Source: Escherichia coli 042 (GTDB taxonomy: Bacteria; Pseudomonadota; Gammaproteobacteria; Enterobacterales; Enterobacteriaceae). From it: a stretch of DNA of 64,000 nt. A program made the translations under genes and the position numbers. Under the pieces are notes generated by a model. The model was not told the origin of the DNA. It saw only the letters and a program-made list of their open reading frames with translations, and did not search any database. Shown here piece by piece: positions 28,071-30,890 of the stretch. The stretch's first letter is position 1, and the number at the start of each line of letters is the position of its first letter. Location of the stretch: NCBI RefSeq assembly GCF_000027125.1, contig NC_017626.1, one strand, 5' to 3'.

Positions 28071-28532
28071 CTACTGGTTACGTTTCTTTAGTGCCAGCAT
28101 GTTCTCGAAGGCTTCCTCGTAGAGCTTGTTTAGTCCACGTAGCTGGTTAAGGAGTTTGGCTTTTTCTGACGCAGGTAGAATCTCGAAGAGGTTAAGTAAC
28201 TCTGCCTGTTCTTCATTGACCAGCCTCCATCCTTTGCCTGAAAAGTTATCATCATAAGTATCTGATGATCTTACATAATTCATTAAGTCTTTAAGGTCTT
28301 CTCGAATGTCCTCTGGTTTTACCTTTAACAGAGCCGCAAATTTTAGCGCAGCGTCGGTATTTACCGGTATCTTGCCGTTCAGATACTGGCTAACGGTGCC
28401 TTGAGATTCGAATCCCAACAACTCAGCCGCCAGCTCTTGAGTCAGCTTCAGCTCTTTTTTTCTTGCATTCCATGCGGCTTTTAAATTCTTGCTCGCTTCT
28501 GGAGTTGCAATCACTTCGCGTGTTTTTTTCAT
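28071..28532 (-). CDS. racR: prophage repressor, XRE-type HTH (153 aa), RacR-like
   Basis: HTH LTQELAAELLGFESQGTVSQYLNGK; divergent from a cro-like gene; Rac-like gene order. Confidence 0.75.
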   Translation of the reverse strand: MKKTREVIATPEASKNLKAAWNARKKELKLTQELAAELLGFESQGTVSQYLNGKIPVNTDAALKFAALLKVKPEDIREDLKDLMNYVRSSDTYDDNFSGKGWRLVNEEQAELLNLFEILPASEKAKLLNQLRGLNKLYEEAFENMLALKKRNQ

Positions 28533-28639
28533 ACATAGAGTTTATTTGTTTTACCAATATTATCAAAGATAGTCTGGCTATTGATCTTTAAAATTAGCGG
28601 GGCTAATATTTGCTCGAGGCATAACGTAGAAGGTTGGCT
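28533..28639. promoter_or_regulatory. divergent repressor/cro promoter-operator region
   Basis: AT-rich 107-bp intergenic region with imperfect inverted repeat atcaaagat-N12-atctttaaa between divergent HTH genes. Confidence 0.45.
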
Positions 28640-28915
28640 ATGAACTTAAGAGACTATTTAAAAGAGAAACATATCACCCAGCTACAGTTTGGGAAGCTAA
28701 CGGGTTTATCTCAGGTGCATGTAAGTCGAGTGCTGGGGGGCTATGAAAGATTCAGCCCTGAAAAAGCATTACGTGTTGCTGAAGTAACGAATTTCGAGGT
28801 TACACCTCATGAACTCCGGCCTGATATTTACCCGAATCCAACCGACGGCTTACCTGTTGGATTCAAGGCTAACACACCAAATGCATCGGAGTTGATTCAT
28901 GAAAATCAGGCATGA
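28640..28915 (+). CDS. ydaS: Cro-like HTH protein, YdaS-like (91 aa)
   Basis: HTH LQFGKLTGLSQVHVSRVL; GAAGG Shine-Dalgarno; first gene of the rightward operon. Confidence 0.7.
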   Translation: MNLRDYLKEKHITQLQFGKLTGLSQVHVSRVLGGYERFSPEKALRVAEVTNFEVTPHELRPDIYPNPTDGLPVGFKANTPNASELIHENQA

Positions 28916-29324
28916 GCACATCCGCATGGCGATGAATGCCTGGGCGCATCCGGACGGTGAAAAAGTTCCGGCAGCTGAAATAACCCGGGCTTATTTTGAG
29001 CTTGGTATGACGTTCCCGGAATTATATGACGACAGCCATCCGGAAGCCCTGGCTCGCAATACCCAGAAAATTTTCCGCTGGGTGGAGAAAGACACTCCTG
29101 ATGCGGTTAAAAAAATTCAGGCGTTGTTACCAGCGATCGAAAAAGCAATGCCGCCTCTGCTGGTGGCCCGAATGCGCAGCCACAGTTCAGCTTATTTTCG
29201 GGAGCTGGTGGAGACGCGGGAACGACTGGTGAGAGACGCTGATGATTTTGTCGCAGTGGCGATCGCTGGTTTCAACCAGATGAATCGTGGTGGCCCTGCA
29301 GGAAATATTGTGGCTGTGCATTGA
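28899..29324 (+). CDS. ydaT: YdaT-like protein (141 aa; Rac prophage YdaT family)
   Basis: MKIRHEHIRMAMNAWAHPDGEKVPAAEIT... recalled as matching K-12 YdaT; overlaps ydaS-like stop. Confidence 0.75.
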   Translation: MKIRHEHIRMAMNAWAHPDGEKVPAAEITRAYFELGMTFPELYDDSHPEALARNTQKIFRWVEKDTPDAVKKIQALLPAIEKAMPPLLVARMRSHSSAYFRELVETRERLVRDADDFVAVAIAGFNQMNRGGPAGNIVAVH

Positions 29325-29395
29325 CTCGCAATATTCATACCGGATCACTTCCGGCAATTTGTGAGTAAAAAGATTCGGTATCAGAAGAGGTGAGT

Positions 29396-30436
29396 ATGGC
29401 TAACGCCTGGCTCAGATTATGGCATGACATGCCAAATGACCCTAAGTGGCGAACAATTGCCAGGGTGTCAGGGCAGCCAATTGCAACAGTGATGGCAGTG
29501 TATATCCACCTTCTGGTGAGCGCGTCACGAAATGTCACGACATGTCACGGCGTGTCACTACGTGGTCACATTGATGTCACGACGGAAGATTTAGCAAGTG
29601 CGCTTGATGTGACGGAAGAAGTAATTGATTCAATTTTACAGGCAATGCAGGGGCGGGTACTTGATGGAGATTTAATCACCGGATGGGAAAAACGCCAGGT
29701 ACTGAAAGAGGACAATGGCAACGTTTCACAAACCGCGAAATCCCCGGCAGAGCGCAAGAGAGCGCAGCGCGAGAGGGAAAAATTACGAAAACAGAATGAG
29801 GGGTGTCACGACGAGTCACGCATATGTCACGACATGTCACGACGAGTCACGACAGATAAAGATACAGATAAAGAATTAAACCCCACACATAACGCGCACG
29901 TGCGCGAGAGTGCTCCGACCAGTGAGTCGAGTGGTACGCCGTTGCAGGCAGCAGAACCTGCATCCCTGGATGGACTGAGCGAACCCATCGGGAAATTTCC
30001 GATGGTCGATGACTGGCATCCGTCGCCGGATTTTCGACGACGGGCTGCGTTGTGGGGGATGGCTTTGCCGGAGCCGGAATTTACACCTGCTGAACTTGCC
30101 GCTTTCCGGGACTACTGGGCAGCGGAGGGGAAAGTTTTCACGCAGGTTCAGTGGGAGCAGAAATTCGCCCGTCACGTAAATCACGTCAGGGCGCAGGTTA
30201 AGCCAGTCAGCAAGGGGGTAAACCATGCAGCAGCACCAGGTGGCACCGCATCACGGGCAGTTCAGGAAATTCGGGCAGCACGTGAGCAGTGGGAACGTGA
30301 AAACGGATTTATCAGCGACGGAAACGGTCTGGAAGCTGTGGGAACTCATGGGGGAGGTTTATTCGAACCGCTGGACCCAGAAGAACGGGGCCGCACCTTC
30401 GAAGCTCTGGATTGCACAGATTGGCGCGATGACTGA
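29396..30436 (+). CDS. replication initiator, lambda O-like role (YdaU/DUF1376-like N-terminus), 346 aa; contains ori iterons
   Basis: AAGAGG Shine-Dalgarno; two internal iteron arrays; followed by a lambda P-like gene. Confidence 0.8.
   Translation: MANAWLRLWHDMPNDPKWRTIARVSGQPIATVMAVYIHLLVSASRNVTTCHGVSLRGHIDVTTEDLASALDVTEEVIDSILQAMQGRVLDGDLITGWEKRQVLKEDNGNVSQTAKSPAERKRAQREREKLRKQNEGCHDESRICHDMSRRVTTDKDTDKELNPTHNAHVRESAPTSESSGTPLQAAEPASLDGLSEPIGKFPMVDDWHPSPDFRRRAALWGMALPEPEFTPAELAAFRDYWAAEGKVFTQVQWEQKFARHVNHVRAQVKPVSKGVNHAAAPGGTASRAVQEIRAAREQWERENGFISDGNGLEAVGTHGGGLFEPLDPEERGRTFEALDCTDWRDD
29521..29585. repeat. ori iteron array 1: six GTCAC-core repeats at ~10-bp spacing inside the initiator gene
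   Basis: gtcacgaaatgtcacgacatgtcacggcgtgtcactacgtggtcacattgatgtcacgac. Confidence 0.75.
29801..29880. repeat. ori iteron array 2: five GTCACG repeats at 10-11-bp spacing followed by an AT-rich tandem cagataaaga element
   Basis: gtcacgacgagtcacgcatatgtcacgacatgtcacgacgagtcacgac then agataaagatacagataaagaattaaa. Confidence 0.75.
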
Positions 30437-30890
30437 GCAGCAAATCCGACAGGTCTGCCGCCAGTGCATGGACCGCTGCCGGGCGGGTGAAACATGGCCT
30501 CCGGACCTGGCTGAGTTTGTGGCGCTGATTTCAGAAAGCGGGGCCAATCCATTTGGCCTGACGGTGGATGCTGTGATGGAGGAGTACCGCCGCTGGCGTG
30601 ATGAATCCTGGCGATATGACGGAAGCGACAAATATCCGTGGCCTCAGCCTGTGCTGTACCACATCTGCCTCGAAATGCGTACCAGAGGGATTGAGCGCCA
30701 GATGACGCAGGGTGAGTTAAAACGACTTGCGGAACGGCAACTGACGAAATGGGCAAAGCATGTTGGTAACGGGATGAGTGTTCCGCCAGTGCGACGACAA
30801 CTGGAAGGGGCGAAACACCCGCAAGGGCCAACGCCAATTGAACGGCTGAAACAGGAATACGAACGCCGGAAGGCAGCTGGTTTTATTTGA
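30225..30890 (+). CDS. lambda P-like replication protein (helicase loader family), 221 aa
   Basis: C-terminal half resembles lambda P (YDGSDKYPWPQP..., ...ELKRLAERQLTKWAKHV...); ATG with AGGGGG Shine-Dalgarno; overlaps the initiator 3' end out of frame. Confidence 0.65.
   Translation: MQQHQVAPHHGQFRKFGQHVSSGNVKTDLSATETVWKLWELMGEVYSNRWTQKNGAAPSKLWIAQIGAMTEQQIRQVCRQCMDRCRAGETWPPDLAEFVALISESGANPFGLTVDAVMEEYRRWRDESWRYDGSDKYPWPQPVLYHICLEMRTRGIERQMTQGELKRLAERQLTKWAKHVGNGMSVPPVRRQLEGAKHPQGPTPIERLKQEYERRKAAGFI

What the first reader, a model, noticed from the sequence alone, without database searches (positions are those of the whole stretch)
30225..30436. About 212-nt out-of-frame overlap between the initiator gene and the P-like gene
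The P-like ORF has a good start (ATG 30225 with AGGGGG Shine-Dalgarno), and the region resembling the lambda P N-terminal part (WIAQIGAMTEQQIRQVCR...) lies upstream of the initiator stop (30436), so the two genes would overlap by about 70 codons in different frames. Either both frames are really translated (rare but known in phages), or the initiator in this prophage carries a frameshift-derived C-terminal extension.
Basis: seen in the sequence. Interest (0 to 1): 0.3.

Follow-up and report, generated by a model that had tools for sequence, protein, structure and literature searches.

The report
Conserved initiator / helicase-loader gene overlap
In this E. coli prophage the last 70 codons of the replication initiator gene and the first 70 codons of the lambda-P-like helicase-loader gene are written in the same DNA in two reading frames, an arrangement conserved from enterobacterial to Vibrio phages, which most current annotations (RefSeq included) miss by starting the loader gene too late.

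Summary
The initiator ORF (29390/29396..30436) and the P-like ORF (30225..30890, frame +1) share 212 nt.

In this one sequence that is not beyond chance. The chance of the initiator frame staying open is 0.075. Comparison settles it.

- All 242 related loci that could be scored keep the arrangement: 236 with a 209-224 nt overlap, the other six explained in the report. Eight Vibrio-phage and metagenome lineages with unrelated initiator domains have 113-230 nt.
- The ATG with a Shine-Dalgarno site is the only start shared by all lineages.
- P residues 26-66 (three confident helices, lambda P domain II) lie upstream of the start that RefSeq uses (30429).
- P-frame similarity between distant lineages exceeds a synonymous-recoding null (z 7-15).
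- The initiator frame never acquires a stop: 0 of 303 at-risk codons against 270 of 884 downstream. It carries a conserved helix and an acidic, glycine-rich disordered tail.

Constraint changes frame inside the overlap. The initiator helix lies over P's disordered leader, and P's folded domain lies over the initiator's disordered tail.

Both frames are therefore very probably translated. This is not a private frameshift. The function is inferred only: the tail may adapt the initiator to its cognate loader. It is a new, widespread example of a known kind (overprinted phage genes).

The parts
29390..30436 (+). Replication initiator gene (frame A). The likely start is ATG 29396. The stop is TGA 30434-30436.
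   Evidence: ORF list. RefSeq annotates the CDS from the equivalent of 29396 in a 99.9% identical E. coli copy. Pfam DnaT domain PF17948, 64.1 bits against a cut-off of 25.
29523..29571 (+). First cluster of TGTCACG iterons at 10-nt spacing inside the initiator gene (probable origin).
   Evidence: the repeat finder families D1 and D2.
29804..29874 (+). Second iteron cluster, followed by two copies of ACAGATAAAGA (A+T-rich).
   Evidence: the repeat finder families D1, D2 and D4.
29972..30205 (+). DnaT-like ssDNA-binding domain of the initiator (residues 195-272). It ends just before the overlap.
   Evidence: phmmer match to E. coli DnaT structures 9zbt and 4ou6, E 2e-20. AF2 pLDDT 82-90.
30212..30218 (+). 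Shine-Dalgarno site (AAGGGGG) for the P-like gene, inside the initiator coding sequence.
   Evidence: Sequence. A GGAGG, GAGG or GGGGG site sits 6-9 nt upstream of the same ATG in all enterobacterial lineages and is weaker in Vibrio phages.
30225..30890 (+). Full-length lambda-P-like helicase-loader gene (frame B, 221 aa).
   Evidence: PF06992, 59.3 bits against a cut-off of 26. Full-length 212-223 aa homologues down to 48% identity. Foldseek best hits are lambda P in the DnaB-P complex 9oa1.
30225..30436 (+). The 212-nt region that codes in two frames.
30225..30314 (+). Proximal part of the overlap, where the initiator frame dominates. It encodes the initiator helix (residues 288-304, nt 30251-30301) and the disordered, unconserved P leader (residues 1-26).
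   Evidence: Codon-position diversity peaks at A3 (0.36 and 0.29). Frame A is conserved beyond the null in most distant pairs and frame B is not. AF2: helix at model residues 100-116 and P residues 1-26 with pLDDT below 50.
30315..30436 (+). Distal part of the overlap, where the P frame dominates. It encodes P helices 26-46, 48-54 and 60-66 (lambda P domain II) and the acidic, Gly-rich disordered tail of the initiator (residues 305-348).
   Evidence: Diversity peaks at B3 (0.30-0.35) and B2 is 0.04-0.12. Frame B z 6-12. pLDDT 87-92 for the P helices. Tail pLDDT 36-45. D+E 22.7%, Gly 16%.
30429..30431 (+). ATG used as the P start by RefSeq and several phage records (153-aa product, 8-nt overlap ATGACTGA). 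Probably not the main start.
   Evidence: Annotations. This codon is Leu in many lineages. No in-frame start is present there in K249, L249, L172 or L173.
30348..30350 (+). Internal ATG (Met42), used as the start in about 180-aa database entries. It lies inside predicted helix 26-46.

Best explanation
This is a genuine, ancient same-strand overlap in two frames between the replication initiator gene and the lambda-P-like helicase-loader gene.

How it is read: ribosomes read the initiator in frame A to TGA 30436. Other ribosomes start independently at SD 30212-30218 / ATG 30225 in frame +1 and make a 221-aa P protein.

How the 212 shared bases are divided:
- The first third or so encodes a conserved amphipathic helix of the initiator (residues 288-304) over the unconserved, disordered N-terminal leader of P.
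- The remainder encodes the first three helices of P's lambda-P-domain-II-like fold over an acidic, glycine-rich, disordered initiator tail. That tail is kept free of stops and acidic by the choice of P-synonymous codons.

Likely origin (inference): P's frame is ancestral in the distal part, because it is homologous to non-overlapped lambda P. The initiator tail there would then have arisen by overprinting after its stop moved downstream.

Likely function (inference by analogy with the lambda O / lambda P interaction): the helix plus acidic tail is the adaptor through which the initiator recruits its cognate P-DnaB complex. Because the adaptor is encoded inside the P gene, the two always recombine together. 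This would explain why the same tail-plus-P module is found grafted onto at least four unrelated origin-binding domains.
For: Shown by the sequences:
1. The arrangement is kept in all 242 loci that could be scored: frame B = A+1, with the A stop 61 or 37 nt before the WPPDL motif in 241 and 58 nt before it in one. Measured from the first ATG of frame B, 236 have a 209-224 nt overlap; four have an extra in-frame ATG further upstream, one has a 218-nt overlap and one a disrupted frame. There are 112 distinct overlap sequences. Vibrio-phage and metagenome lineages have overlaps of 212, 212, 194, 191, 200, 230, 221, 137 and 113 nt.
2. ATG-1 with an SD site is the only start common to all lineages. 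In L186 it is the only in-frame start before codon 38. The initiator residue over it varies (His, Asn, Asp) but always keeps the bases xAT-G.
3. P-frame similarity between distant lineages is far above a null in which the initiator protein is kept and its codons are redrawn: z 7.4-14.9, 0 of 400 trials. For the distal part z is 6.2-12.5.
4. W39 and the KNG and WI..IG motifs lie upstream of 30429. AF2 places helices 26-46, 48-54 and 60-66 at pLDDT 87-92. A family profile aligns lambda P residues 15-201, and Foldseek's top hits are lambda P.
5. Frame A is kept open. P(open | P protein) is 0.0005-0.13 per lineage. T-ending codons that would create a stop occur at 0 of 303 at-risk sites in the overlap, against 270 of 884 in the rest of P.
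6. The frame A helix region is conserved beyond the null: z above 2 in 12 of 16 distant pairs (2.0-6.8), including z 2.3, 4.4 and 3.5 for the window against the Vibrio lineages L249, L251 and L253.
7. G at the P third position before A-starting codons is 62.6% in the distal overlap against 31.1% downstream (odds ratio 3.7). This gives 22.7% Asp+Glu in the tail.
8. Nucleotide diversity among close relatives is 0.027 in the overlap against 0.071 and 0.086 in the flanks. The three-base periodicity switches from A3 to B3 inside the overlap.
9. There is no unusual RNA structure, z +0.83.
10. The tail-plus-P module sits behind DnaT-domain, DUF1376, HTH_36/DnaD_N, DUF6291 and unclassified initiators.
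Against: - There is no direct evidence of expression: no ribosome profiling and no peptides.
- In the distal part the sequence constraint on the initiator frame is weak. P four-fold synonymous diversity is 0.446 against 0.483 downstream, not significant. Frame A similarity is not above the null in several distant pairs.
- The tail motifs EE[RW]G and LD..DW are largely forced by P's KNG and WI..IG codons (reasoned).
- P's first 25 residues or so show no sequence conservation. The exact start rests on the conserved ATG and SD, not on protein conservation.
- In two lineages (L088, L252) the tail stops after 113-137 nt, so the distal tail is dispensable there.
- The lineage counts are not phylogenetically independent, so the p-values are inflated.
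- The adaptor function is an analogy. No interaction was tested.
Confidence: 0.85

Rival explanations
1. The current RefSeq annotation is right. P starts at ATG 30429 (or 30348), coupled to the initiator stop through ATGACTGA. The upstream open P frame is untranslated, perhaps a relic of an older, longer gene.
For: RefSeq and several phage records annotate it this way. ATGACTGA looks like a classical coupling site. The P frame stays open by chance fairly often, given the initiator protein (0.05-0.88). A short isoform made in addition to the long one cannot be excluded in the E. coli and Klebsiella lineages.
Against: The P-frame protein sequence upstream of 30429 is conserved between lineages whose DNA is saturated (z 6-15), with B3-type periodicity and very low B2 diversity. 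It forms three confident helices of the lambda P domain II fold. Codon 69 is Leu in many lineages, and several lineages have no start codon near it. In K249 the annotated start, Met112, leaves a 121-nt gap and cuts off the WPPDL motif.
Confidence: 0.07
2. Only P is functional in the overlap. The initiator effectively ends after its DnaT domain and helix, and the distal tail is a tolerated, functionless read-on.
For: P four-fold synonymous sites in the distal overlap evolve almost as fast as elsewhere (0.446 against 0.483). The tail is predicted to be disordered. Its motifs are imposed by P codons. L088 and L252 lack the distal tail.
Against: A functionless tail should be cut short at random. 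Instead 0 of 303 at-risk codons end in T, against 30.5% elsewhere, and P(open) is 0.0005-0.13 in each of at least eight deep lineages. Synonymous choices are biased towards G, which makes Asp or Glu (odds ratio 3.7). Distal frame A similarity exceeds the null in several distant pairs (z 3-3.8).
Confidence: 0.1
3. The overlap serves to make an initiator-P fusion protein by programmed +1 ribosomal frameshifting.
For: P is in the +1 frame. Database proteins P0103 and P0119 are in-frame DnaT-domain::P fusions that switch frame inside the overlap.
Against: Those fusions come from loci whose initiator and P genes are broken in several frames, so they are decayed or error-prone assemblies. No shift-prone motif was noticed on reading the sequence (not formally scanned). 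The conserved SD and ATG argue for independent initiation. No RNA structure is present.
Confidence: 0.03
4. A sequencing error or private frameshift mutation in this prophage created an artificial extension of the initiator.
For: None beyond the unusual length of the overlap.
Against: The arrangement is identical in hundreds of independent genomes and phages.
Confidence: 0.01

Closest known systems
Bacteriophage lambda O-P replication module
   Same: An initiator gene with the origin (iterons) inside it is followed directly by the helicase-loader gene. P is homologous to lambda P over its whole length. In lambda, the disordered N-terminal domains I of P are proposed to bind the O-origin complex (PMC12661323).
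   Different: Lambda O and P overlap by 4 nt (ATGA). Here they overlap by 212 nt. The initiator here has a DnaT-like domain instead of Phage_rep_O. The other P subfamilies checked have 4-nt overlaps (phiV10, RothD, HK639) or a 29-nt overlap (TL-2011b).
Lambda O' read-through protein (Yates et al. 1977, as cited in PMC3640518)
   Same: A longer form of the initiator is made in the initiator's frame and ends inside the 5' part of the P gene.
   Different: In lambda this is a minor product of UGA read-through. The O frame is open for only 34 further codons, and that extension is not visibly similar to the tail here (by eye; not aligned). Here the extension is constitutive, about 70 codons long, and conserved.
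Overprinted (dual-frame) virus genes, such as phiX174 A/B and D/E, MS2 L, and lambda Rz/Rz1 (own knowledge; reviewed in PMC8227390)
   Same: One stretch of DNA is read in two frames on the same strand. The newer frame encodes a disordered product of biased composition. Synonymous variation is depressed.
   Different: The two products here belong to one machine (initiator and loader). The overlap is terminal rather than nested. The dominant constraint changes frame part-way along.
E. coli dnaT-dnaC operon (own knowledge)
   Same: A DnaT-domain protein is encoded directly upstream of a DnaB helicase loader.
   Different: dnaC is an AAA+ loader unrelated to P, and no long overlap is involved. This comparison was not examined here.
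Vibrionaceae VdhL helicase loaders and their conserved upstream gene OG4911 (PMC11087808)
   Same: The Vibrio-phage P-like proteins found here have relatives in Vibrio chromosomes, next to an HTH-type upstream gene and close to dnaB. This fits that paper's description of phage-derived loaders transferred together with their upstream gene.
   Different: In the V. maritimus chromosomal pair the two genes are separated by 41 nt (5959/6001) and do not overlap. Identity with VdhL was not verified.

Membership tests
Lambda P helicase-loader family (PF06992) | Sequence match to the family model above the curated threshold | tested here: met
   59.3 bits against a cut-off of 26, residues 55-188. A family profile matches lambda P 8v9t residues 15-201, E 3e-18.
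Lambda P helicase-loader family (PF06992) | Same fold and domain order as lambda P (disordered domain I, helical domains II and III, C-terminal helix) | tested here: met
   AF2 mean pLDDT 79, with residues 1-26 disordered followed by 9 helices. Foldseek's top hits are 9oa1 chains Z, Y and V, probability 1.00, 199-218 aligned columns. TM is only 0.43-0.47, probably because the domain orientations differ.
Lambda P helicase-loader family (PF06992) | Binds and loads DnaB | not testable with these tools
   Needs biochemistry.
DnaT-domain phage replication initiators | DnaT ssDNA-binding domain (PF17948) | tested here: met
   64.1 bits against a cut-off of 25, residues 203-269. Matches solved DnaT structures, E 2e-20.
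DnaT-domain phage replication initiators | Origin iterons within or next to the gene | tested here: met
   Two clusters of TGTCACG repeats at 10-nt spacing inside the gene. Binding was not tested.
Functional dual-frame (overprinted) gene pair | Both reading frames stay open in diverged homologues more often than expected | tested here: met
   All 242 scorable loci. P(frame A open) is 0.0005-0.13 per lineage. 0 of 303 against 270 of 884 stop-creating codons. Frame B openness alone is not informative (0.05-0.88).
Functional dual-frame (overprinted) gene pair | Purifying selection on the protein in both frames | tested here: met
   Frame B: z 6-15. Frame A: the proximal helix has z above 2 in 12 of 16 distant pairs (up to 6.8); the distal tail shows mainly selection on composition and against stops. 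Constraint is partitioned rather than uniform.
Functional dual-frame (overprinted) gene pair | Depressed synonymous variation in the overlap | tested here: met
   Diversity 0.027 against 0.071 and 0.086 among close relatives. A3 is 0.19 against 0.45 and B3 is 0.28 against 0.44. At P four-fold sites in the distal part the reduction is not significant.
Functional dual-frame (overprinted) gene pair | Own translation start for the downstream frame | tested here: met
   Conserved ATG with an SD site in all lineages. This is sequence evidence only.
Functional dual-frame (overprinted) gene pair | Both products detected experimentally | not testable with these tools
   No ribosome-profiling or proteomic data were available. 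Literature searches found no description.
Programmed ribosomal frameshift fusion | Conserved slippery site and stimulator, with the fusion as the normal product | tested here: not met
   No unusual RNA structure. The fused database proteins come from degraded loci. No formal scan for slippery motifs was run.

The most novel reading that the evidence does not exclude
The overlap may be a genetic lock. The initiator's loader-recruiting element (helix plus acidic tail) is encoded inside the loader gene itself, so in mosaic phage genomes any recombination that brings in a new helicase loader automatically gives the resident initiator the matching adaptor. That would be a general way for interacting partners to stay matched during modular exchange. 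It would also be a case where a new protein-protein interface arose by overprinting on its own partner's gene.
Probability: 0.3. Interest if true: 0.7.

Novelty: new member of a known kind. Interest (0 to 1): 0.45.

Why it matters
1. Annotation. RefSeq's 153-aa 'replication protein P' and similar entries lack 68 residues, including three helices of a folded domain. In some Vibrio phage records more than 110 residues are missing. Some part of the 1.5-kb query covering both genes is matched in 2563 of 5426 complete E. coli genomes, and at least 80% of it in 657. Structural or functional work on the short form would use a truncated protein.

2. Biology. Long same-strand overlaps between two essential genes of one machine are rare in tailed phages. 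This one is old enough to be shared by enterobacterial and Vibrio phages. It shows a clear division in which the ordered segment in one frame lies over the disordered segment in the other.

3. Evolution. The tail-plus-P unit moves as one module onto different origin-binding domains. That gives a concrete, testable explanation of how initiator-loader specificity survives mosaic recombination.

4. Experiment. Clean single-base separation-of-function mutations are available because of the frame offset.

Tried and rejected
- Private frameshift or sequencing error: rejected because the arrangement is ubiquitous.
- RNA structure as the cause of low synonymous variation: rejected, fold z +0.83.
- Homology between the lambda O' read-through extension and this tail: rejected by eye only. 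Lambda's O frame is open for 34 codons past the stop and the extension shows no visible similarity to the tail; no alignment was run.
- Natural initiator::P fusions as evidence of a functional link: P0103 and P0119 come from loci broken in several frames, and P0084 is a deletion derivative. They are not reliable.
- The tail motifs EE[RW]G and LD..DW as evidence of tail conservation: rejected, because they are dictated by P's KNG and WI..IG codons. Their resemblance to the lambda O C-terminus (NTDW) may be coincidence.
- Overlap in the chromosomal Vibrio relatives (probable VdhL): not present in V. maritimus.
- A structure prediction of a tail-linker-P fusion, to test an interaction, was considered and dropped.
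- A viral-contig scan with a seven-sequence Vibrio alignment failed for lack of a conserved stretch. The narrower one found only 3 loci.
- Literature searches for a prior description of this overlap found none. The library is incomplete, so prior knowledge cannot be excluded.

Full report
**What is in the window.**

The + strand carries a Rac-like prophage early operon. It holds YdaS-like and YdaT-like genes, then a 348-aa ORF (29390..30436) and a 221-aa ORF (30225..30890) in the +1 frame.

- The first ORF has a DnaT ssDNA-binding domain at residues 195-272. It also holds two clusters of TGTCACG repeats at 10-nt spacing, a probable origin.
- The second ORF is a lambda P homologue.
- AAGGGGG lies 6 nt before ATG 30225. 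A TAA in the P frame at 30219-30221 excludes any start further upstream.

Taken alone, the overlap is not beyond chance. I kept the P protein and redrew its codons, and the initiator frame stayed open in 7.5% of trials. The converse figure is 41%.

**How it is annotated elsewhere.**

- RefSeq calls P from the equivalent of ATG 30429 (153 aa, 8-nt overlap) in a 99.9% identical E. coli chromosome. So do phages Rac-SA53 and vB_Apl-pPE4.
- PPompW, Chris1 and Vibrio phage K249 records start P even later.
- Older GenBank proteins of 221-223 aa also exist.
- Protein databases hold the same gene at about 140, 153, 180 and 221 aa, which reflects uncertainty among gene callers.

**Comparative evidence that the overlap is real.**

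I collected about 260 loci.

- In all 242 loci that could be scored, an upstream ORF in frame B-1 stops inside the open P frame. Measured from the first ATG of the P frame, 236 give a 209-224 nt overlap. Four have an extra in-frame ATG further upstream, one has a 218-nt overlap and one has a disrupted frame. These loci hold 112 distinct overlap sequences.
- Vibrio phages and two metagenomic lineages share only 22-27% P identity with the window. Their initiators have different domains: HTH_36/DnaD_N, DUF6291 with a lambda-O-like C region, or none recognised. They still overlap by 212, 212, 194, 191, 200, 230, 221, 137 and 113 nt.
- Other P subfamilies have 4-nt overlaps (lambda, phiV10, RothD, HK639) or 29 nt (TL-2011b).

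The long overlap is therefore a derived, conserved trait of one P subfamily.

**The P frame is translated from upstream of the initiator stop.**

- In an alignment of full-length homologues, W39, KNG (residues 53-55), P58 and W62 are invariant or nearly so, and all lie before codon 69. Codon 69 itself is Leu in many lineages.
- ATG-1 is the only in-frame start present in every lineage. In the enterobacterial lineages a GGAGG, GAGG or GGGGG site precedes it by 6-9 nt.
- Between distant lineages, P-frame similarity in the overlap exceeds the null in every pair with the long overlap (z 7.4-14.9, 0 of 400). The null keeps both initiator proteins and redraws their codons.
- AlphaFold2 on 42 sequences predicts residues 1-26 as disordered. 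It places helices at 26-46, 48-54 and 60-66 with pLDDT 87-92.
- Foldseek's best PDB hits are lambda P chains of the DnaB-P complex. The family profile aligns lambda P residues 15-201.

So the overlap encodes the counterpart of domain I and the first half of domain II. The 153-aa annotated form would begin in the middle of a folded domain.

**The initiator frame is also maintained.**

- P(no stop in frame A | P protein) is 0.0005-0.13 in each of 18 representative loci.
- In 26 representatives below 93% identity, none of 303 codons that could create a frame-A stop by ending in T does so. In the non-overlapped part of P, 270 of 884 do.
- That count is partly circular, because the overlap ends by definition at the first stop. 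The point is that the stop keeps its place in deep lineages whose synonymous sites are near saturation.
- AlphaFold2 on the initiator C-terminal half predicts a confident DnaT domain, a linker, and one helix (initiator 288-304, TASRAVQEIRAAREQWE). The last 44 residues are disordered.

**Constraint changes frame inside the overlap.**

Nucleotide diversity by codon position:

| Region | Highest diversity | Other values |
|---|---|---|
| Upstream of the overlap | A3, 0.41-0.50 | |
| P codons 1-24 | A3, 0.36 and 0.29 | |
| P codons 37-70 | B3, 0.30-0.35 | B2 0.04-0.12 |
| Downstream of the overlap | B3, 0.42-0.46 | |

- Among close relatives, diversity is 0.027 in the overlap against 0.071 and 0.086 in the flanks.
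- I split the recoding test at about P codon 30. In the proximal part, frame A is above the null with z above 2 in 12 of 16 distant pairs (2.0-6.8), while frame B is not in most.
- In the distal part, frame B has z 6.2-12.5. Frame A is above the null only in some pairs, at z about 3-3.8.
- The distal tail is weakly constrained in sequence. P four-fold synonymous diversity is 0.446 there against 0.483 downstream, which is not significant.
- The tail's composition is under selection. At P third positions followed by an A-starting codon, G is used in 62.6% of cases against 31.1% downstream (odds ratio 3.7). G there makes Asp or Glu in the initiator frame. The distal tail is 22.7% Asp+Glu and 16% Gly.
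- The tail motifs EE[RW]G and LD..DW follow mechanically from P's KNG and WI..IG codons. They are not independent evidence.
- No unusual RNA structure explains the low variation (z +0.83).

**Interpretation.**

What is shown: two reading frames kept by selection, a conserved independent start, and reciprocal placement of ordered and disordered segments.

What is inferred about origin: the distal P frame is ancestral, being homologous to non-overlapped lambda P. The acidic tail would have been overprinted on it after the initiator stop moved downstream. The 113-137 nt forms (L088, L252) look like an intermediate or reduced state.

What is inferred about function: the tail-plus-P unit occurs behind at least four unrelated kinds of origin-binding region, and the junction lies near the SD site (L205). 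By analogy with lambda, where domain I of P is proposed to bind the O-origin complex (PMC12661323), the helix plus acidic tail may be the initiator's adaptor for its own loader. It would be locked to that loader by sharing its DNA. This was not tested.

**Comparison with what is known.**

- The closest precedent in the same system is lambda O'. This is a read-through form of O that ends inside the 5' part of P (Yates et al. 1977, cited in PMC3640518). In lambda the O frame is open for only 34 more codons, and that extension bears no visible resemblance to the tail here.
- In general terms this is an overprinted overlap of the kind known from phiX174, MS2 and lambda Rz/Rz1 (own knowledge; PMC8227390).
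- I found no description of this particular overlap.

**Verdict.**

The 'private frameshift' alternative is rejected.
- It is a new, widespread member of a known kind.
- Interest is moderate (0.45). It matters for correct annotation of a very common prophage gene. It also gives a testable idea about how initiator-loader pairs stay matched in mosaic phages.

Noticed in passing
window 29523-29571 and 29804-29874: About eleven TGTCACG repeats at 10-nt spacing sit in two clusters inside the initiator gene. The second cluster is followed by two copies of ACAGATAAAGA. This is probably the phage origin, placed inside the initiator gene as in lambda O. In the protein the repeats give recurring CHD(E/M)SR-like peptides.
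   Followed up: partly
window 29390-29398: The mechanical ORF starts at GTG 29390. ATG 29396, preceded by GAGG, is the start RefSeq uses and is more plausible. Initiator residue numbers in this report count from 29390.
   Followed up: partly
L007 2212-2334 (Vibrio phage K249); also L248 and L005: Deposited annotations start the P-like gene far downstream: Met112 in K249 and D62, and 47 nt after the initiator stop in Chris1. This leaves apparent intergenic gaps that are in fact conserved coding sequence. In the 1.84-billion-protein library many family members begin at profile positions 36-89.
   Followed up: partly
L260 3001-4158 and L261 1822-2760: Database proteins P0103 and P0119 are DnaT-domain::P fusions that change from the initiator frame to the P frame inside the overlap. 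Both loci have their replication genes broken in several frames, so they are probably decaying prophages or assemblies with indel errors.
   Followed up: partly
L263 5021-6792 (Vibrio maritimus chromosome CP090438.1): A relative of the Vibrio-phage P-like protein lies in a non-prophage chromosomal context, five genes from dnaB. It follows an HTH-type gene resembling the phage initiators. Here the two genes are separated by 41 nt (5959/6001) and do not overlap. This fits the phage-derived VdhL loaders and their upstream gene OG4911 (PMC11087808), but that identity was not verified.
   Followed up: partly
L262 900-986 (lambda O C-terminus); L256, L255, L006, L254: Initiators of several P-type modules end in an acidic and aromatic tip: lambda O ...TNTDWIYGVDL, HK639 ...NNTDWAYGVIR, phiV10 ...PEAWEDFL. 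The tails here end in ...LDCTDWRDD, ...DNGDWSSK or ...DSPDRFDD. The resemblance may reflect a shared function or may be coincidence, because here it is partly dictated by P codons.
   Followed up: partly
L205 about 2182-2661; L249, L250 and L253 initiators: The same tail follows quite different upstream domains. L205 lacks the DnaT domain. L249, L250 and L253 have a lambda-O-like C region (KDSFWCSNILSPDKLRKQF, compare lambda O DNFWSGNVLSPAKLRDKW). This suggests recombination junctions just upstream of the P Shine-Dalgarno site.
   Followed up: partly
window 28634-29324: The YdaS-like ORF (28634..28915) and the YdaT-like ORF (28899..29324) overlap by 17 nt. A divergent repressor-like ORF lies at 28071..28532 on the minus strand. 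This is the usual layout of a Rac-type immunity and early region.
   Followed up: no
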